A model generated the notes under the pieces. That model saw only the letters and a list, made by a program, of their open reading frames with translations, made no database searches and had not been told where the DNA came from. The position numbers and the translations under genes are program-made. DNA of 64,000 nt from Mobula hypostoma. Its lineage: Eukaryota. How positions within the stretch are numbered: position 1 is the first letter of the stretch; each line of letters begins with the position of its first letter. The stretch covers positions 139,254,001 to 139,318,000 of the forward strand of contig NC_086097.1 in assembly GCF_963921235.1 (NCBI RefSeq), in the 5' to 3' direction. Shown one piece after another: positions 19,718 to 61,820 of this stretch.

Positions 19718-19992
19718 GTACGTATCCTAATAAGAATCATCAGCCAATCGAATTGCACTTTCAGTAAGTTTCACTTCATGCTGAACATAACTTTCTTGTA
19801 GTTTCCAGGCAGAATACTGGTCTCTTAGTCCCAGAGTTGTGTGTTTGTGTGAGGCACAGCTTGCCTGGTCAGGAAAGCAGGTGAATCTCCCAACAAACAA
19901 CAGGAATTCTGCAGATGCTGGAAATTCAAGCAACATACATCAAAGTTGCTGGTGAACACAGCAGGCCAGGCAGCATCTATAGGAAGAGGCGC

Positions 19993-20028
19993 AGTTGACG
20001 TTTCAGGCCGAGACCCTTCGTCAGGACT
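19993..20028 (-). ncRNA. second minimal hammerhead copy (stem I mismatch)
   Basis: Reverse complement reads agtcctgacgaagggtctcggcctgaaacgtcaact. Confidence 0.7.
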
Positions 20029-22510
20029 AACTGAAGGAAGAGTGAGTAAGGGATTTGAAAGCTGGAGGGGGAGGGGGAGATGCAAAATGATAAGAGAAGA
20101 CAGGAGGGGGAGGGATGGAGCCGAGAGCTGGACAGGTGATAGGCAGAAGGGGATACGAGAGGATCATGGGACAGGAGGTCCGGGAAGAAAGACGGGGGGG
20201 GGGGTGACCCAGAGGATGGGCAAGAAGTATATTCAGAGGGACAGAGGGAGAAAAAGGAGAGTGAGAGAAAGAATGTGTGCATTAAAAAGAGTAACAGATG
20301 GGGTACGAGGGGGAGGTGGGGCCTAGCGGAAGTTAGAGAAGTCAATGTTCATGCCATCAGGTTGGAGGCTACCCAGACGGAATATAAGGTGTTGTTCCTC
20401 CAACCTGAGTGTGGCTTCATCTTTACAGTAGAGGAGGCCGTGGATAGACATGTCAGAATGGGAATGGGATGTGGAATTAAAATGTGTGGCCACTGGGAGA
20501 TCCTGCTTTCTCTGGCGGACAGAGCGTAGATGTTCAGCAAAGCGGTCTCCCAGTCTGCGTCGGGTCTCACCAATATATAAAAGGCCACATCGGGAGCACC
20601 GGACGCAGTATATCACCCCAGTCGACTCACAGGTGAAGTGATGCCTCACCTGGAAGGACTGTTTGGGGCCCTGAATGGTGGTAAGGGAGGAAGTGTAAGG
20701 GCATGTGTAGCACTTGTTCCGCTTACACGGATAAGTGCCAGGAGGGAGATCAGTGGGGAGGGATGGGGGGGACGAATGGACAAGGGAGTTGTGTAGGGAG
20801 CGATCCCTGCGGAATGCAGAGAGAGGGGGGGAGGGAAAGATATGCTTAGTGGTGGGATTCCATTGGAGGTGGCGGAAGTTACGGAGAATAATATGTTGGA
20901 CCCGGAGGCTGGTGGGGTGGTAGGTGAGGACCAGGGGAACCCTATTCCTAGTGGGGTGGCGGGAGGATGGAGTGAGAGCAGATGTACGTGAAATGGGGGA
21001 GATGCGTTTAAGAGCAGAGTTGATAGTGGAGGAAGGGAAGCCCCTTTCTTTAAAAAAGGAAGACATCTCCCTCGTCCTAGAATGAAAAGCCTCATCCTGA
21101 GAGCAGATGCGGCAGAGACGGAGGAATTGCGAGAAGGGGATGGCGTTTTTGCAAGAGACAGGGTGAGAAGAGGAATAGTCCAGATAGTTGTGAGAGTCAG
21201 TAGGCTTATAGTAGACATCAGTGGATAAGCTGTCTCCAGAGACAGAGACAGAAAGATCTAGAAAGGGGAGGGAGGTGTCAGAAATGCACCAGGTAAACTT
21301 GAGGGCAGGGTGAAAGTTGGAGGCAAAGTTAATAAAGTCAACGAGTTCTGCATGCGTGCAGGAAGCAGCGCCAATGCAGTCGTCGATGTAGCGAAGGAAA
21401 AGTGGGGGACAGATACCAGAATAGGCACGGAACATAGATTGTTCCACAAACCCAACAAAAAGGCAGGCATAGCTAGGACCCATACGGGTGCCCATAGCTA
21501 CACCTTTAGTTTGGAGGAAATGGGAGGAGCAAAAGGAGAAATTATTAAGAGTAAGGACTAATTCTGCTAGACGGAGCAGAGTGGTGGTAGAGGGGAACTG
21601 ATTAGGTCTGGAATCCAAAAAGAAGCGTAGAGCTTTGAGACCTTCCTGATGGGGGATGGAAGTATATAGGGACTGGACATCCAAGGTGAAAATAAAGCGG
21701 TGGGGGCCAGGGAACTTAAAATCATCGAAAAGTTTAAGAGCGTGAGAAGTGTCACGAACATAGGTCGGAAGGGATTGAACAAGGGGTGATAAAACAGTGT
21801 CGAGGTATGCAGAAACGAGTTCGGTGGGGCAGGAGCAAGCTGAGACAATAGGTCGGCCAGGACAGGCAGGTTTGTGGATCTTGGGTAGGAGGTAGAAACG
21901 GGAAGTGCGGGGTGTGGGAACTATAAGGTTGGTAGCAGTGGATGGGAGATCCCCTGAGCGGATAAAGTTGTTGATAGTGTGGGAGACAATGGCCTGGTGC
22001 TCCTTAGTGGGGTCACGATCGAGGGGTAAATAAGAGGAGGTATCCGCGAGTTGTCGCTGTGCCTCGGCAAGGTAGAGGTCAGTACGCCAGACTACAACAG
22101 CACCCCCCTTATCAGCGGGTTTAATAATAATGTTAGGATTAGTGCGGAGGGAGTGGAGAGCAGAGCGTTCCGAAGGAGTGAGGTTGGCATGAACATTGAC
22201 TTCTCTAACTTCCGCTAGGCCCCACCTCCCCCTCGTACCCCATCTGTTACTCTTTTTAATGCACACATTCTTTCTCTCACTCTCCTTTTTCTCCCTCTGT
22301 CCCTCTGAATATACTTCTTGCCCATCCTCTGGGTCACCCCCCCCCGTCTTTCTTCCCGGACCTCCTGTCCCATGATCCTCTCGTATCCCCTTCTGCCTAT
22401 CACCTGTCCAGCTCTCGGCTCCATCCCTCCCCCTCCTGTCTTCTCCTATCATTTTGCATCTCCCCCTCCCCCTCCAGCTTTCAAATCCCTTACTCACTCT
22501 TCCTTCAGTT

Positions 22511-22546
22511 AGTCCTGACGAAGGGTCTCGGCCTGAAACGTCGACT
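22511..22546 (+). ncRNA. minimal type I hammerhead ribozyme (Penelope-associated)
   Basis: agtc CTGACGA AGG-gtctcgg-CCT GAAA CG TC gact: intact core, stem II, palindromic minimal stem III, GUC site and stem I agtc/gact. Confidence 0.8.
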
Positions 22547-22884
22547 GCGCCTCTTCCTATAGATGCTGCCTGGCCTGCTGCGTTCACCAGCAACTTTGAT
22601 GTATGTTGCTTGAATCTCCCAACAAGTGCACCACACACAGAAGACAACACCACCGACATGGTCTGGAGTTCAAGTTGGCACAGAGTAGCCAAGGACAGCA
22701 TGCTCTTAGATGGCTGGATCTTCACCATAGCTAGCAGCCCCCAAGGCTGACGTCACCCTTTCTCCCGGGCCTGACCCGATTCTACCCAAGGCCTGAACAT
22801 TTATCCCCACCAACTTTGAATCCACATGCTCCAGATTCTCACCCTGGTCAGTTAATAGAATATAATCTGCTCTTCCCCTTGCAG

Positions 22885-25847: not shown

Positions 25848-27295
25848 CATAGAAACATAGAAACATAGAAACATAGAAAATAGGTGCAGGAGTAGGCCAT
25901 TCGGCCCTTCGAGCCTGCACCGCCATTTATTATGATCATGGCTGATCATCCAACTCAGAACCCAGCCTTCCCTCCATACCCCCTGACCCCTGTAGCCACA
26001 AGGGCCATATCTAACTTCCTTTTAAACATAGCTAATGAACTGGCCTCAACAGTTTGCTGTGGCAGAGAATTCCACAGATTCACCACTCTCTGTGTGAAGA
26101 AGTTTTTCCTAACCTCGGTCCTAAAAGGCTTCCCCTCTATCCTCAAACTGTGACCCCTCGTTCTAGACCTCCCCAACATCGGGAACAATCTTCCCGCATC
26201 TAGCCTGTCCAATCCCTTTAGGATCTTATACGTTTCAATCAGATCCCCCCTCAATCTTCTAAATTCCAACGAGTACAAGCCCAGTTCATCCAGTCTTTCT
26301 TCATATGAAAGACCTGCCATCCCAGGAATCAATCTGGTGAACCTTCTTTGTACTCCCTCTATGGCAAAGATGTCTTTCCTCAGATTAGGGGACCAAAACT
26401 GCACACAATACTCCAGGTGTGGTCTCACCAAGGCCTTGTACAACTGCAGTAGTACCTCCCTGCTCCTGTACTCGAATCCTCTCGCTATAAATGCCAGCAT
26501 ACCGTTCGCCTTTTTCACCGCCTGCTGTACCTGCATGCCCACTTTCAATGACTGGTGTATAATGACACCCAGGTCTCGTTGCACCTCCCCTTTTCCTAAT
26601 CGGCCACCATTCAGATAATAATCTGTTTTCCTATTTTTGCCACCAAAGTGGATAACTTCACATTTATCCACATTAAATTGCATCTGCCTTGAGTTTGCCC
26701 ACTCACCCAACCTATCCAAGTCACCCTGCATCCTCTTAGCATCCTCCTCACTGCTAACACTGCCACCCAGCTTTGTGTCATCCGCAAACTTGGAGATGCT
26801 GCATTTAATTCCCTCATCCAAGTCATTAATATATATTGTAAACAACTGGGATCCCAGCACTGAGCCTTGCGGTACCCCACTAGTCACCGCCTGCCATTCT
26901 GAAAAGGTCCCGTTTATTCCCACTCTTTGCTTCCTGTCTGCTAACCAATTCTCCACCCACACCAATACCTTACCCCCAATACCGTGTGCTTTAAGTTTGC
27001 ACACTAATCTCCTATGTGGGACCTTGTCAAAAGCCTTTTGAAAATCCAAATATACCACATCCACTGGTTCTCCCCTATCCACTCTACTGGTTACATCCTC
27101 AAAAAATTCTATGAGATTCGTCAGACATGATTTTCCTTTCACAAATCCATGCTGACTTTGTCCGATCATTTCACCGCTTTCCAAATGTGCTGTTATCACA
27201 TCCTTGATAACTGACTCCAGCAGTTTCCCCACCACCGACGTTAGGCTAACCGGCCTATAATTCCCCGGTTTCTCTCTCCCTCCTTTTTTAAAAAT
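25848..27295 (-). mobile_element. young 5'-truncated CR1 LINE with open RT
   Basis: ORF 25955..27310 NYRPVSLTSVVGK...GVPQGSVLG...KFADDTKLG; (tatgtttc)n 3' tail at 25848-25878. Confidence 0.96.
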
Positions 27296-29672: not shown

Positions 29673-30530
29673 GTAGCTGATACTAGAGTCAATGGGACTA
29701 GAAACTCAGTCCTGTCTGTTACTGGAATTGATGGGTCAAGAACCTCGCTCATGACCATTACTGGAGATGATGGGACGAGAACCTCACTCATGACCGTTAC
29801 TGGAGATGATAGGACAAGAACCTCATTCATGACTATTACTGGAGATGATGGGATGAGAACCTCACTCATGACCATTACTGGAGATGATGGGACGAGAACC
29901 TCACTCATGACCATTACTGGAGATGATGGGACGAGAACCTCGCTCATGACCGTTACTGGAGATGATGGGACAAGAACCTCGCTCATGACCATTACTGGAG
30001 ATGATGGGACGAGAACTTCATTCATGACCATTACTGGAGATGATGGGACGAGAACCTCACTAATGACCGTTACTGGAGATGATGGGACGAGAACCTCACT
30101 CATGACCATTACTGGAGATGATGGGACGAGACCCTCACTAATGACCGTTACTGGAGATGATGGGACAAGAACCTCGCTCATGACCATTACTGGAGATGAT
30201 GGGACGAGAACCTCATTCATGACCGTTACTGGAGATGATGGGACGAGAACCTCACTAATGACCGTTACTGGAGATGATGGGACGAGAACCTCACTCATGA
30301 CCATTACTGGAGATGATGGGACGAGAACCTCATTCATGACCATTACTGGAGATGATGGGACGAGAACCTCACTAATGACTGTTACTGGAGATGATGGGAC
30401 GAGAACCTCACTCATGACCGTTACTGGAGATGATGGGACGAGAACCTCACTCATGACCATTACTGGAGTTGGTGGGTCTAGGGCAACTCTCCTGTTTGCT
30501 ATTGGAGTTGACAGCTCCAGAACCACCTTC
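29673..30530. repeat. 39-bp minisatellite, 18 near-perfect units plus ~4 degenerate flanking units
   Basis: Unit atgaccattactggagatgatgggacgagaacctcactc; core 29751-30452 = 18 x 39. Confidence 0.97.
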
Positions 30531-31598: not shown

Positions 31599-31800
31599 GC
31601 AAACTGTTGAGGCCAGTTCATTGGCTATGTTTAAGAGGGAGTTAGATATGGCCCTTGTGGCTACAGGGGTCAGGGGGTATGGAGGGAAGGCTGGGTTCTG
31701 AGTTGGATGATCAGCCATGATCATAATAAATGGCGGTGCAGGCTCGAAGGGCCGAATGGCCTACTCCTGCACCTATTTTCTATGTTTCTATGTTTCTATG
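31599..31800 (+). mobile_element. CR1 3' end, same young subfamily as 25848..27295
   Basis: ~3 mismatches by eye versus the reverse complement of the 25848..27295 element's 3' end; (tatgtttc)n tail. Confidence 0.93.
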
Positions 31801-32984
31801 TTAAGTCTGGGATGTTCCATTGGTAAAGTCCCACACCCTGGGATAGTTCTGGATCTGCAGGTAAACTGGCGTAGTGGAGTTACAGGGTCATACAGCATGA
31901 AGACAAGCCTCTGACCAAAGTGCCTCCTTCAAGCTCACCTTATTTCCCAACATTAGGCCTATAACTTTCTAAGCCTTCTCTGTCCATATACCTGTGCAAC
32001 TGTCTTTTAAAAGTTATTGTATCTGTCTCAGCCACTACCCCTGGCAGTTCATTCCACGTACCTATCATCCTCTGGGCCTGTGGGAGGTGTGTCCTGTCAC
32101 ACTCAGCCAGCGATGTTTATGTCTTGTGGACGAAACCAGGACACACACAGCAGTTTACAAAGGAACAGCAAACAAGGTCTATTTGCTTTGTTTCCTGGTA
32201 AAACCTCAGAGATATTGGCTTCAGTTTTACCTTCTGCCTCACTTCAGAACAGCCTTGCCTGTCTCGATCGCCCGCTGGGGTTCAGGCTTGAAATCTGATC
32301 CTGTTCCCTGACGTCTGAGCCTGTGCATTGTTAGTTCAATTCGTACTCCTGAAACTTGTGGTCGCTGTCCAGGCAGGTTGTGGTCAGTGCTTGCAGACTA
32401 GTCAGACTATAACCCAGCTAAGACTACAGAGTGAGCACCCACCCCCAGCACACCAGAGAACCCTCAGCCTGGACAAACAGCATGACAAACTGTCCAGTCA
32501 GTCCTTTGCCATGAAAGAGGGAATAGGTGGGGCCACAGTCTCAGCAGATACCCCACCCACCAACTCAACTACTGGAGTTACCAGAGGGATCAGGTGGAAT
32601 GGAGAGGGAGAGAAAGAGTGCTCAGCCCTCTGGGAATGGGAAGATATTCTAGCAGGTGATTGGATGGATAGAACCTGTGTTAGGTGTCATTTTAGGATTG
32701 AACGGTTGGCACTAACAACCATGAGGACCTTTGCTGTTCCTGAGAAGGTAGTAAGTAAGACAAGGTGAGGGGGAGAAGAACATTTCCAACGGCAAACCCC
32801 AGCTCACCAGCTGCCAGGACCAGAACAGACACTTCCACAGTGGGAGAGTGACTGGAGGAGAGGGTGCTGGTCACTGGGGAGCTGGAGAGATACTGGAGGA
32901 GAAAATACTGGGCTGTAGAGGAGATGCATTGCCATACACTCCTGGACCTCTGTACCACTCTGATGTCTGTTTTTGGTTTTGAAG

Positions 32985-46322: not shown

Positions 46323-46675
46323 CTGGGATAGGGTCAGAGGTCTGGGAGGAAGAAGGGAGCAGGCCAGGAGACTGCGGAAAGAAGACATCAAACTGGGATA
46401 GGCTTGGGGGTCTGGGAGGAAAAGGGGATCAGGCCAGGAGACTGCGGAAGGAAGACATCAAACTGGGATAGGCTTGGGGGTCTGGGAGGAAGAAGGGAGC
46501 AGGCCAGGAGACTGCAGAAAGAAGACATCAAACTGGGATAGGCTTGGGGGTCTGGGAGGAAGAAGGGAGCAGGCCAGGAGACTGCGGAAAGAAGACATCA
46601 AACTGGGATAGGCTTGGGGGTCTGGGAGGAAAAGGGGATCAGGCCAGGAGACTGCGGAAGGAAGACATCAAACTG
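46323..46675. repeat. 70-bp purine-rich tandem repeat, 5 units
   Basis: ctgggatagg recurs at 46323, 46393, 46463, 46533 and 46603. Confidence 0.95.
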
Positions 46676-49600: not shown

Positions 49601-50312
49601 TCTATGATAAGAGCCGAGCATTCAGCATGAATCTGTGACACCTGCTCCCAGCCTCCCAGCCAGAAAGTGACCCATTCATCCACACTCTCAGTTTTCTATC
49701 CTTTAACCAGTCCTCACCCTGTGCCACTCCGATGTCATGTGCTCTGTGTGGCACCTTGTCAAAGACTTTCTGAAAGCGCAGTTACACCCTATCCACAAGC
49801 TTCCCATGTATCTATTCTGCTAGTTACAACCTCTAGAAGCTCAGATCAGTCAAACATTATTTCCCTTCTATCAAGCCGTGTTGACTTTGCTTAATCCTGC
49901 TATTATTTTCCAAGTGCCCTGAAATCACTTCCTTAACAACATTCTCTCTTCTACTGAATCAGCCAACTGGTTGGTAACTCTCTCTCCTTCCTTCCATGAG
50001 TAGTGGGGCTCCAGATTTGCATTCTCTCCTACCTGGGTAAAGGTTTGAATCGAATTCAAAGACCATCCCCTCACCTTCTGGATTCCATAAAATCAGCTTG
50101 GTGACAAGTGTCAAAAAAAAATGTGTAATCTGTTTAATGTGATGTGTTCTGTTTCGGAAGAGAGCCCTTGCACTGAGAGCTATACAGTTCTCTCTACTGA
50201 AAGAAAGTTAGAGATTAAGGTTAAAATTATGCAAATTCTGATTTGCTAATCCTATTATTCAAATTGGTTTTATCTCTTGAGCTACTCTGCTGACTGCTTT
50301 CCTTTTGAACAG

Positions 50313-50501
50313 CCCTAGGAGTTGGGTACAGCTGGAATCCATCAGCGCTCAATATCCTTGTAGGGGACACAATCCACTGGCGGTGGGAGGCCGCACCTCT
50401 CGTCCAGGGCTTGAGCTACCGAGTCTTCAGTGTCTCCAAGTCCTGTGATGTGAATTACAAAGGCAGGGGCTTTATAAGTGGAAATACCGGCACTCCATCA
50501 G
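50313..50501 (+). CDS. PKHD1L1: exon 25 (GC donor)
   Basis: cag|CC...TCAG|gcaagt; LGVGYSWNPSALNILVGDTIHWRWEAAPLVQGLSYRVFSVS...GFISGNTGTPSG; phase 1-1. Confidence 0.9.
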
Positions 50502-51786: not shown

Positions 51787-51957
51787 GCTTTTTCTCCCAC
51801 CGCTTCACCTCCCCTGGCTCGTTTTTCTACAGCAGTGGTTACATCGACCAGAACAAAAAGATCTTCCTACAAGGCACAGTGCATGTGAGGGCAGCAGAGG
51901 AGAACTCCCTAAACCTGCACGTTTCTGTGGCTGCAATTGAGGCAGAATACCTATCTG
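51787..51957 (+). CDS. PKHD1L1: exon 26
   Basis: tag|GC...TCTG|gtgagc; FFSHRFTSPGSFFYSSGYIDQNKKIFLQGTVHV...EAEYLSG; phase 1-1. Confidence 0.92.
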
Positions 51958-52759
51958 GTGAGCTCATCCACTTTCAGTCTGCAGATTTTCAGGCAGTACC
52001 AGGACCAGGTTAACAGAAATCCAAATCAGGTTTATATGTCTTATATGATATGAAATTTGTTATCTTACAGCAGAGCAAAGACATAAAATTACTATAAATT
52101 ACAAAATAAATCAATGGTGCAAAAAATAATGAGGTCATCTTCATGGATTCATGGACCATTCAGAAATCTGATGGTGGAGGGGAAGAAGGTGTTCCTAAAT
52201 CATTGAGTGGGGGTCTTCTGGCTCCCTAATGCTAGTAGTGAGAAGAGGACATGTCCCAGATCCTCTCAGCTCCCTGGCTGGGTTAGGTTTGTTGCTATTA
52301 AAGAGGTCACCCATTAAGTGAGGCACTAGTATTGCCCAATAGATATCATTGCTGTTCAAGATGTGGCTAAAACTTCTTTGAGCAAAAAATGCTAACTTCG
52401 GGAGAGTATACATTGTAGATAAGTGGACCAATGTTCTCCAATCATGAAGTTCCCTGTCATTACAGCTGTTCAGTGACCAAGGTAGTGGCGAACAATTATC
52501 AACACGTATTTGCATCCATTGTATCTGCTGTGTTTTACCATTAATAGGAAACGCAATGAAGCAGAAAGAAATCTCAGAGTACACAACCAAGCATGAGTGA
52601 ATCTAGGGACGGGGATGACAGGCCCCTCACTGTAATCTGTCAGTCAATGATTTTTCCAGAGAGTGTCTGGGTGAGAACAAAGGGTGTAACCTGTGAAGTA
52701 GGGCTTCAAACAGAGTCTTCCTTTTTCAAATATCTGCTGACCCTTATTCAGCATTAAGC

Positions 52760-53160
52760 ACATGAGGTGGGTGACACTGCCTCACAGACTCAGTAGCTCA
52801 AGCCCTGGATGAGAGGTGGGGCCTTCCACCGCCAGTGGATTGTGTCCCCCACAAGGATATTGAGCGCTGATGGATTCCATTTTCAGTCCCAACCTCAGGT
52901 GCTGTGTCTGTGGAGTTTGCAAGTTCTCCCTGTGACTTCTCTCAGCCGCTCCACTTTCTCTCACCCTGAAGGCGTGTGGGTTGGTGGGTTAATTGTTCAC
53001 AGTAAATTGCACCTGGTGTGGGGGCGAGAGCTGAAATCCTGGGGCATGGGGAGCTGATGGGAATATGGGAATCAAAAAATGGGGTTAGTATAGAATTAGA
53101 GTAAATAGTGTTTAAAGTGTTGGTGTGGACTCAGTAGACAAGTGTTACCATGCTGTATAA
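52760..53160 (+). mobile_element. tRNA-derived SINE interrupted by an inverted PKHD1L1 exon fragment
   Basis: cactgcctcacag [insert] ...ggtgctgtgtctgtggagtttgcaagttctccctgtgac SINE body. Confidence 0.7.
52786..52879 (-). repeat. inverted duplicate of exon 25 segment 50333..50426
   Basis: Ungapped reverse-complement match, 89/94 nt by eye. Confidence 0.95.
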
Positions 53161-58310: not shown

Positions 58311-58689
58311 GTGAATGCTCATTGGAACATCTTCCTCCAGTGCCCAGTTCAATACCAGCCCAGTACACTGCACCCATTCCACACCACCCCCTTCCATTCA
58401 CAACCATCCCACCCTTAGCCAACACTCACCCATCCAATCCACGCCATCCCACCTGATCCCAAACCATCCATCCCAATAAAGTACAACCTTTCTCCAACCA
58501 TCCTCAACACCCGTTCACCCCATTCTCACCTTTCCCCAATACCCACCCGTTCACCCCATTCTCGCCTTTCCCCAATACCCACCCAATTCATTGGGTCAGA
58601 TCTTTGCTGTCAGTGGCCTTTCACTCTAGAACTTGAACTCGCCCTCGAGGACCTAGCTGGAGGTATGAACTGGAGGAGGCAGAAGCTAT

Positions 58690-60074
58690 GCAGGATGATG
58701 GGGTTGGTTAGAATTACATAGAGTTTACACACAGAATTAGACCATCCTGCCCAGTGCAGGGTGATGGGTTTGGTTAGAATCATATAGAGGTTACACACAG
58801 AATTAGACCATCATGCCCAGTGCAGAACGATGGGGTTGGTTAGAATTACATAAAGTTTACACACAGAATTAGACCATCCTGCCCAATGCAGTATGATGGG
58901 GTTGGTTAGAATTACGTAGAGGTTACACACAGAACTAGACCATCTTGCCCAATGCAGGATGATGGGGTTGGTTAGAATTACATCAAGTTTTCACACGGAA
59001 TTAGACCATCCTGCCCAGTGCAGGATGATGGGGCTGGTTAGAATTACATCAAGTTTTCACACGGAATTAGACCATCCTGCCCAGTGCAGGATGATGGGCT
59101 GGTCAGAATTACATCGAGGTTACACACAGAATTAGACCATCCTGCCCAATGCAGTATGATGGGGTTGGTTAGAATTACGTAGAGGTTACACACAGAATTA
59201 GACCATCCTGCCCAATGCAGGATGATGGGGTTGGTTAGAATTACATCAAGTTTTCACACAGAATTAGACCATCCTGCCCAGTGCAGTATGATGGGGTTGG
59301 TTAGAATTACGTAGAGGTTACACACAGAATTAGACCATCTTGCCCAATGCAGGAGGATGGGGTTGGTTAGAATTACATCAAGTTTTCACACAGAATTAGA
59401 CCATCCTGCCCAGTGCAAGATGATGGGGCTGGTTAGAATTACATAGAGGTTACACACAGAATTACACCATCATGCACAGTGCAGGATGATGGGGTTGGTT
59501 AGAGTTACATAGAGGTTACACACAGAATTAGACCATCTTGCCCAATGCAAAATGATGGGGTTGGTTAGAATTACATCGAGTTTACACACAGAATTAGACC
59601 ATCCTGCCCAATGCAGGATGATGGGGTTGGTTAGAATTACATTGAGTTTACACACAGAATTAGACCATCCTGCCCAATCCAGGGTGTTGGGGTTGGTTAG
59701 AATTATATTGAGTTTACACACAGAATTAGACCATCCTGCCCAATGCAGGATGATGGGGTTGGTTAGAATTACATTGAGTTTACACACAGAATTAGACCAT
59801 CCTGCCCAATGCAGGATGATGGGGTTGGTTAGAATTACATTGAGTTTACACACAGAATTAGACCATCCTGCCCAGTGCAGGATGATGGGGTTGGTTAGAA
59901 TTACATAGAACTTACACACAGAATCAGACCATCCTGCCCAGTGCAGGGTGTTGGGGTTGGTTAGAATTACATAGAACTTACACACAGAATTAGGCAATCC
60001 TGCCCAATGCAGGATGATGGGGTTGGTTAGAATTACATTGAGTTTACACACAGAATTAGACCATCCCGCCCAAT
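58690..60074. repeat. 66-bp minisatellite, ~21 units
   Basis: Unit gcaggatgatggggttggttagaattacatagagtttacacacagaattagaccatcctgcccagt; period 66 (e.g. 59821 to 59887). Confidence 0.97.
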
Positions 60075-60215
60075 GCTCTGCATGAGCTCACCACCACTCT
60101 CCTTCCTCACAACCCATCTCCAAACTCTTCACAGCCTGTTCTTAATGATCATTCTACATCCCCTAGATCAAACTGAACCCAGGAGATGTTTTAACAACTC
60201 CGTCATTTGTTTTAG

Positions 60216-61644: not shown

Positions 61645-61820
61645 GACACTTCCTCAAGTACTGCCCCTCCCACAGTGTGGCATTCCCTCAGTGCCACCCC
61701 TCCCACTGTGTGCCATTCTCTCAGTGCCACCTGTGCCACGGTGTGCCGTTCCCTCAGTGACACCCCTCCCAGAGCGTGGCATTCCCTCAGTGCCACACCT
61801 CAGTATGGCACTCCCTCAAT
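61645..61820. repeat. degenerate ~33-bp tandem repeat, ~5 units
   Basis: Recurring cattccctcagtgccacccctcccacagtgtgg. Confidence 0.75.

What the first reader, a model, noticed from the sequence alone, without database searches (positions are those of the whole stretch)
52786..52879. Antisense copy of part of a PKHD1L1 coding exon, embedded in a SINE in a downstream intron
Seen: 52786-52879 is an ungapped reverse complement of exon 25 positions 50333-50426 (89/94 nt; two of five differences are CpG-type transitions). It replaces the region where the B-box of the surrounding SINE should be, which suggests a templated insertion or repair event copying from 2.4 kb away. Inference: both strands are in the same pre-mRNA, so a ~90-bp exon-intron duplex can form that loops out exon 26 and the exon 25 GC donor. 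This matches the known architecture of an ADAR editing-complementary sequence and of structure-driven exon skipping. It would be a recently arisen cis-antisense regulator of the host gene.
Basis: partly seen in the sequence, partly recalled or inferred. Interest (0 to 1): 0.72.

Follow-up and report, generated by a model that had tools for sequence, protein, structure and literature searches.

The report
Backwards exon copy in ray PKHD1L1
A 94-base backwards copy of part of a PKHD1L1 exon sits 2.4 kb downstream in an intron of two related ray species; it is predicted to pair with the exon in the RNA, but it is likely a DNA-repair scar of a kind found every few hundred kilobases in this genome, and no effect on the gene is shown.

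Summary
52786-52879 is an ungapped reverse complement of PKHD1L1 exon bases 50333-50426 (89/94), and the genome search found only these two copies. It replaced about 15 nt of an old tRNA-type SINE, just before a largely kept B box.

A close relative carries the insert and three more distant ones lack it, so it is neither a misassembly nor very young. Both SINE flanks resemble the exon's flanks in register (joint p about 0.002, post hoc), which points to homeology-primed template switching during repair. Six similar local copies lie in 1.6 Mb of sampled genome, so roughly 180 exon-templated inverted copies are expected genome-wide.

A -195 kcal/mol exon-intron duplex is predicted, and a flanking helix would also cover the exon's splice acceptor. 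But mismatches have accumulated at or above the neutral rate with no clear compensation, the best ADAR-type site is silent, and Alu editing at 2.4 kb is about 20-fold reduced. No RNA covered the locus.

Verdict: likely a tolerated repair scar; a selected regulator is about 7% likely. The scan noted similar scars before, in this genome (TMPRSS6) and in other cartilaginous fishes.

The parts
50313..50501 (+).
   Evidence: tblastn with shark and ray PKHD1L1 proteins; splice sites read from the sequence
50333..50426 (+). Template of the insert: begins 20 nt inside the exon and ends 75 nt before the donor
50309..50329 (+). Acceptor CAG and exon start, imperfectly complementary to SINE 52886-52905 (flank helix predicted at -24 kcal/mol)
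50428..50437 (+). Exon stretch complementary at 9 of 10 nt to SINE head 52770-52779 (candidate priming homeology)
51787..51957 (+). PKHD1L1 coding exon B (171 nt), inside the predicted loop
52770..52787 (+). Degenerate tRNA-type SINE head, ending in the 2-nt AG shared with the template; present in relatives C, D, E
52786..52879 (-). 94-nt inverted copy of exon A, 89/94 identical; present in species A and B, absent in C, D, E
52880..52881 (+). Two bases (TT) that match neither the template nor the SINE majority
52882..53038 (+). SINE body from the B-box core onward, 86% identical to the majority of 28 copies (old element)
   Evidence: nhmmer E 1.9e-42 against a profile of 28 genomic copies

Best explanation
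The 94-nt copy is likely a tolerated scar of one homeology-primed template switch during repair of a break or stalled fork in an old intronic SINE. Inferred steps: the broken SINE end annealed through a 2-nt AG and a nearby 9-of-10 match to the coding strand of the exon 2.4 kb upstream. It copied 92 further bases, came off, and re-annealed to the SINE's other side, helped by a second imperfect match; about 15 nt of SINE were lost and 2 bases were added. Shown: the copy, its two-copy status, its presence in species A and B, and the flank similarity. Inferred from contigs: its absence in C, D and E. Predicted: the copy can pair with the exon in nascent RNA. Because it is made 2.4 kb later and in another gene segment, it would pair on a minority of transcripts, giving at most low-level, unselected editing or skipping. 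The pair is drifting apart.
For: 1. Empty sites in relatives. Contigs of C, D and E match the window up to 52785-52787, then run on for 40, 44 and 68 letters that do not fit. They have no depth at 52831, and their exon contigs are unbroken. B has contigs over the insert and a 39-nt double-depth unitig shared by exon and copy.
2. Junction anatomy. About 15 nt replaced (22 of 28 copies), AG overlap on the left, 2 extra bases on the right, no poly-A tail or target duplication.
3. Flank homeology. p 0.025 left, 0.008 right, 0.002 jointly (90 of 42,572 slid placements). Microhomology and 'microhomeology' mark MMB-TI events, which accumulate as germline variants (PMC8421209, passages).
4. Background class. 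6 unique-arm local copies of 53-84 nt, 89-96% identical, 184-2188 nt apart, in 1.6 Mb (4 inverted, 2 direct), against 0.6 expected from low-copy repeats. In 5 of the 6 tested genome-wide, the only full-length partner is the local one. About 180 exon-templated inverted copies are expected if coding DNA is 35 Mb (assumed).
5. No sign of constraint. 5 mismatches in A, against 0.7-2.6 neutral changes expected in the copy alone. B's copy differs from A's at 5 of 113 nt including junctions (at least 2 of 94 inside the insert), against 1.4% in flanking intron. The exon changed Pro to Ala at 50393 in A only, creating a G-G mismatch.
6. Distance. Human Alu editing falls about 20-fold at 2400 bp and is weaker across gene segments (PMC4066801, passages).
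Against: The predicted duplex is very strong: -195 kcal/mol, 91 of 94 paired in a 2.65-kb fold, and 2 of the 5 differences remain G-U pairs. The flank helix extends it over the acceptor CAG. An inverted exon duplication accompanies exon skipping in human CHM (PMC8756506, passages). Five mismatches are too few for a powerful test of neutrality. At 50402, B's exon and both copies are inferred to share A, which could be compensation or conversion, though it is a CpG site. The template is only rank 26 of 2803 candidate priming sites within 10 kb, the homeology test was post hoc, and 0 of 8 background pairs show significant flank similarity. The letters of the empty alleles were not seen.
Confidence: 0.8

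Rival explanations
1. The scar has been recruited as a cis-acting RNA switch. The stem, extended by the SINE flank over the acceptor, would hide exon A's 3' splice site and make some transcripts skip 63 or 120 amino acids in frame, or would guide ADAR recoding, and selection keeps it.
For: Predicted pairing covers 50309-50329 and 50333-50426. Both exons keep the frame. Exon A has a GC donor, generally weaker than GT (established knowledge). The insert is in the two species sampled that descend from the event. The genome encodes several A_deamin-domain genes. 13 of the 19 adenosines in the exon arm would recode. CHM precedent (PMC8756506, passages). Some glutamate-receptor editing-complementary sequences lie nearly 2 kb from their site (recalled).
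Against: Mismatches accumulate at or above the neutral rate. The one A-C mismatch in a UAG context, the preferred ADAR setting (recalled), is 50362, and editing it is silent (Val to Val). The CHM duplication is 1,752 bp, starts 693 nt after the exon and covers both splice sites. In-frame exon loss in human PKHD1L1 is linked to hearing loss (PMC10593026, passages), so strong skipping would probably be harmful. Copies like this are expected by the hundred.
Confidence: 0.07
2. Same neutral scar, but copied from RNA: a retroelement reverse transcriptase copied part of the nascent PKHD1L1 transcript into a nearby break.
For: The copied piece lies wholly inside the exon, so an RNA template cannot be excluded. 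Young CR1-like and Penelope-like elements are abundant in this genome.
Against: No poly-A tail, no target duplication, no retroelement sequence joined to it, and no exon-exon junction in it. The background copies cluster within 2.2 kb although 30 kb was allowed, and come in both orientations, as DNA template switching predicts.
Confidence: 0.1
3. The SINE head drives a short polymerase III transcript that ends at the T-run 52880-52883 and acts as a trans antisense RNA.
For: The insert lies between the SINE's A-box and B-box regions, on the strand antisense to the mRNA, and four T follow it.
Against: The head barely matches the SINE profile (2.9 bits). The B box has lost its leading GG, has G at the A that is invariant in tRNA B boxes (recalled consensus), and lies behind the T-run. 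No Rfam match in the window.
Confidence: 0.02
4. Assembly artefact.
For: None beyond the prior for inverted repeats.
Against: Five differences from the exon. In an independent species, one contig bridges the right junction with 85 and 48 letters, and another reaches 30 letters into the insert across the left junction, one short of the tool's 31-letter bar.
Confidence: 0.01

Closest known systems
Microhomology-mediated templated insertions (MMB-TI / MMBIR, FoSTeS-type template switching; PMC8421209, passages seen)
   Same: Short insertion copied from a nearby template, with local loss of bases, junction microhomology or microhomeology, and persistence as a germline variant.
   Different: That study searched for templates within about 100 bp; here the template is 2.4 kb away and is a coding exon. 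A report of human deletion micro-insertions templated from 2-6 kb away (Abyzov et al. 2015) is recalled only; it was not held.
Human CHM exon-12 intragenic inverted duplication (PMC8756506, passages seen)
   Same: Inverted copy of exon sequence placed in a downstream intron by a microhomology-based replication error, predicted to form a pre-mRNA hairpin.
   Different: CHM: 1,752 bp, 693 nt from the exon, covers the whole exon and both splice sites, skipping observed, pathogenic. Here: 94 nt, 2.4 kb away, another exon in between, carried by two species, no RNA evidence.
ADAR editing-complementary sequences (such as GRIA2 Q/R; search listing and recall) and inverted-Alu editing (PMC4066801, passages seen)
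   Same: Intronic sequence complementary to an exon in the same pre-mRNA.
   Different: No editing shown, no conservation or clear covariation, best-context site silent, and the distance lies where average Alu editing is about 0.15 percentage points above baseline.
V-SINE / HE1-like tRNA-derived SINEs of cartilaginous fishes (label recalled)
   Same: tRNA-like head with B box and a conserved central body, many diverged copies.
   Different: This copy is old (86% to the local majority), interrupted and probably inactive; family membership was not tested against a reference.

Membership tests
Locally templated insertion (MMB-TI / template switch) | Insert absent from the ancestral allele | tested here: met
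   Contigs of 3 of 3 distant relatives stop matching at 52785-52787 and run on unlike the window; 22 of 28 SINE copies have 15 nt there. Empty-allele letters were not seen.
Locally templated insertion (MMB-TI / template switch) | A unique nearby template | tested here: met
   2 matches in the genome, 2,359 nt apart
Locally templated insertion (MMB-TI / template switch) | Microhomology or microhomeology at the junctions | tested here: met
   AG on the left; flank similarity joint p about 0.002, post hoc. The right junction itself has 2 unmatched bases.
Retrotransposed (RNA-templated) insertion | Poly-A or repeat tail, target-site duplication, or spliced junction | tested here: not met
   None at the junctions. 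The insert is internal to one exon, so a spliced template could not show.
ADAR editing-complementary sequence | Intronic complement able to form a duplex with the exon | tested here: met
   Predicted only: -195 kcal/mol, 91 of 94 paired
ADAR editing-complementary sequence | A-to-I editing in the paired exon that depends on the element | not testable with these tools
   2 RNA-labelled contig sets were laid and 0 records covered the stretch; no raw reads were offered
ADAR editing-complementary sequence | Conserved pairing or compensatory changes across species | tested here: not met
   5 mismatches in A and at least 3 inferred in B; absent in C-E; one ambiguous site at 50402. Low power.
Structure-driven exon skipping (CHM type) | Duplex covers a splice site of the exon | tested here: inconclusive
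   The copy itself covers neither site; an imperfect SINE-flank helix is predicted over the acceptor
Structure-driven exon skipping (CHM type) | Skipped transcripts observed | not testable with these tools
   No RNA coverage
V-SINE superfamily | Match to the ~120-bp V domain | not tested
   No reference sequence on hand; label recalled. PMC6887750 passages describe the domain only.

The most novel reading that the evidence does not exclude
The homeology that let a broken SINE copy this exon also makes the SINE flank pair with the exon's splice acceptor, so one repair accident built a roughly 115-bp stem that masks a 3' splice site. It became a lineage-specific switch that yields a PKHD1L1 isoform lacking 63 or 120 amino acids, or an edited form, in the sensory tissue of two ray species: a splicing or editing element caught being born from a DNA-repair scar.
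Probability: 0.07. Interest if true: 0.65.

Novelty: new member of a known kind. Interest (0 to 1): 0.22.

Why it matters
As read here it matters little for PKHD1L1. It is a clean, phylogenetically bracketed example of a kilobase-range templated insertion with homeology on both sides. The background count (about 2.5 inverted copies per Mb, 95% interval 0.7-6.4) tells the scan that exon-antisense intronic copies are expected by the hundred in such a genome and should not be read as regulators on sight. If skipping or editing were shown, it would be a rare case of an editing or splicing element with a known birth, in a gene needed for hair-cell stereocilia in mammals (PMC6707252, PMC11527881; search listings only), with insert-free relatives as natural controls.

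Tried and rejected
RNA: no RNA holder was listed. X22 and X24 (RNA is the tool's guess) were laid on 52600-52898, where exon contigs would also land, and 0 records were laid. This is no evidence either way.

Empty allele: the letters were sought, but C's SINE-side contig was not returned.

Other inverted pairs: the two other near-perfect ones in the window were first suspected to be the same process. They are ends of young, many-copy retroelements and were rejected.

Background scan: one search timed out on a satellite block. That block (20 of 180 fetched stretches, contig C21) was dropped, leaving 1.6 Mb. Of 362 local pairs, 22 passed the filters: 12 with unique arms (including the finding) and 10 with repeat-derived arms. 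I left the 10 out of the count, and also 2 Tc1-like terminal-repeat pairs, 1 LTR-like pair (both labels from recalled end motifs) and 2 pairs of 30-31 nt.

'The exon was the best local match for the broken end': rejected, rank 26 of 2803.

No hits: Pfam had no family for either exon peptide, PDB nothing significant, Rfam nothing in the window.

Literature: (PKHD1L1, exon skipping, RNA editing, shark) showed no paper on this locus among 10 listed of 1,435, which is a weak search. One search returned nothing.

Age in years: not attempted. The only rate seen (7e-10 per generation, epaulette shark, PMC10587355 passages) is from another lineage; it suggests only that 0.7-2.8% divergence is old. No supplements were opened.

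Full report
Observation. Positions 52786-52879 are an ungapped reverse complement of 50333-50426 at 89 of 94 nt, E 1.8e-35. A search of the own 3.48-Gb genome with the exon returned two matches, the exon and this copy. The host gene is PKHD1L1 on the + strand. Among 19 full-length homologues compared, the nearest is from Mobula birostris (88% identity over HSPs that include intron overhang; 94% in this exon), then Hemitrygon, so this is a myliobatiform ray. The template lies inside a 189-nt exon (50313-50501, GC donor), starting 20 nt after the acceptor and ending 75 nt before the donor. A 171-nt exon (51787-51957) lies between template and copy.

Insertion site. The copy sits in an old tRNA-type SINE with many genomic relatives. 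I aligned 28 of them. Between two anchor motifs, 22 of 28 have 15 nt and the window has 94 nt: 92 templated bases plus TT. The SINE profile resumes at 52882 with the B-box core (E 1.9e-42), so the B box is clipped, not replaced. The left junction shares AG with the template. There is no tail and no target duplication.

Relatives. Of 24 runs listed I laid 6. Organism B (introns 1.4% from A) carries the insert. One contig bridges the right junction (52795-52927). Another runs from 52180 to 52815, 30 letters into the insert, one short of the tool's bar. A 39-nt unitig of double depth is shared by exon and copy. Organisms C, D and E (C is 5.6% from A) appear to lack it. Their contigs match up to 52785-52787 and continue for 40, 44 and 68 letters that do not fit, they have no depth at 52831, and their exon contigs are unbroken. 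I did not see those run-on letters. So the event falls between the A/B split and the split from C, and misassembly is effectively excluded.

Fate of the pairing.
- 50393 changed in A's exon only: B-E have C, and 14 of 14 cartilaginous-fish proteins shown have Pro there. It creates a G-G mismatch.
- 50387 changed in the copy before the A/B split.
- 52831 changed in B's copy only.
- From where B's unitigs break and from the per-record difference counts, I infer that 50420 is a CpG decay in A's copy and that 50362 differs in both species.
- By the same inference, B's exon and both copies share A at 50402 while A's exon has G. This site is a CpG and its history is ambiguous: parallel decay, an ancestral allele or conversion.
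Neutral expectation is 0.7-2.6 changes in the copy alone, and 5 mismatches are seen. B's copy differs from A's at 5 of 113 nt including the junctions (at least 2 of 94 inside), against 28 of 1,972 in flanking intron. Nothing suggests selection to keep the pairing, though power is low.

Mechanism of origin. Both SINE flanks resemble the template's flanks in register: 52770-52779 matches the complement of 50428-50437 at 9 of 10, and 52888-52904 resembles the complement of 50310-50326. With the template slid over both strands of the window, p is 0.025 (left), 0.008 (right) and 0.002 jointly (90 of 42,572). The test was post hoc, the exon was only rank 26 of 2803 priming sites within 10 kb, and 0 of 8 background pairs showed the same. 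Even so, the anatomy fits microhomeology-primed template switching as described for MMB-TI events, which persist as germline variants (PMC8421209, passages). An RNA template is less likely but not excluded.

Background rate. I scanned 1.6 Mb in 8 blocks, after dropping one satellite block, for pairs within 30 kb. Apart from transposon terminal repeats and two 30-31-nt pairs, six pairs had unique arms: four inverted (75, 62, 58, 53 nt; 288, 427, 2188, 849 nt apart) and two direct (84, 78 nt; 1650, 184 nt apart), 89-96% identical. Low-copy repeats would give 0.6. Five of the six were searched genome-wide: four gave only the two local matches and one gave four further short partial matches. That is 2.5 inverted copies per Mb (0.7-6.4). 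With 35 Mb of coding DNA assumed, about 180 exon-templated ones are expected in the genome, and about 0.025 in a window like this. The finding is thus an ordinary member of this class whose template happened to be an exon. Earlier notes of the scan describe similar cases in this genome and in other cartilaginous fishes; these are unchecked AI notes and I count them as leads only.

What it could do in RNA. The duplex is predicted at -195 kcal/mol, with 91 of 94 positions paired in a 2.65-kb fold; two differences are G-U pairs. The genome has several A_deamin-domain genes, and 13 of 19 adenosines in the exon arm would recode. Against a real role: the one A-C mismatch in a UAG context (preferred by ADAR, recalled) is 50362, whose editing is silent. 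Human Alu editing decays with an 800-bp scale, is about 20-fold lower at 2400 bp and is weaker across gene segments (PMC4066801, passages). The acceptor is made 2.6 kb before its partner. In-frame exon loss in human PKHD1L1 is linked to hearing loss (PMC10593026, passages), so a strong skipping allele would be unlikely to persist in two species. The CHM precedent is 1,752 bp long, closer, and covers both splice sites (PMC8756506, passages). The same pre-mRNA already holds stronger intron-intron inverted pairs from young retroelements (-941 and -422 kcal/mol). No RNA data covered the locus, so function is untested, not refuted.

Verdict. Real, dated relative to relatives, and mechanistically readable, but likely a tolerated repair scar (0.8). 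A recruited splicing or editing switch remains possible (0.07). New member of a known kind; interest 0.22.

Noticed in passing
window 19920-22619: Young Penelope-like element in a PKHD1L1 intron. It has a 619-aa ORF on the minus strand ending in a GIY-YIG-like motif (recalled label), an inverted 437-nt terminal arm (98.6% identical) joined at its 5' end, and a hammerhead-like core motif in both arms (20024, 22515). 39 listed copies elsewhere are 98-99% alike.
   Followed up: partly
window 25854-26057 and 31599-31802: Two young CR1-like 3' ends (family label recalled) in opposite orientation, 98.5% alike, flank three PKHD1L1 exons; predicted duplex -422 kcal/mol. Identical copies exist elsewhere, so they are independent insertions.
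   Followed up: partly
window 50393: Pro-to-Ala change in this species only, at a position that is Pro in 14 of 14 cartilaginous-fish proteins shown; zebrafish also has Ala.
   Followed up: partly
window 50402 / 52810: Organism B's exon is inferred to share A with both copies, while A's exon has G. Parallel CpG decay, an ancestral allele or copy-to-exon gene conversion; unresolved.
   Followed up: partly
window 58688-60076, 29681-30524, 46323-46675, 61664-61801: Intronic minisatellite arrays; offsets between self-matches suggest units of about 66, 78 and 70 nt for the first three.
   Followed up: no
L096:5727-6164, L210:1281-1831, L137:99-2402, L144:2936-3890, L124:1516-3333, L132:2369-2708: Six further local templated copies of 53-84 nt in 1.6 Mb; their narrow size and distance range suggests one recurrent repair process in this genome.
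   Followed up: partly
L174-L190 (G000:C21, about 100.01-100.18 Mb): Long satellite arrays of at least two unit types; dropped from the background scan.
   Followed up: no
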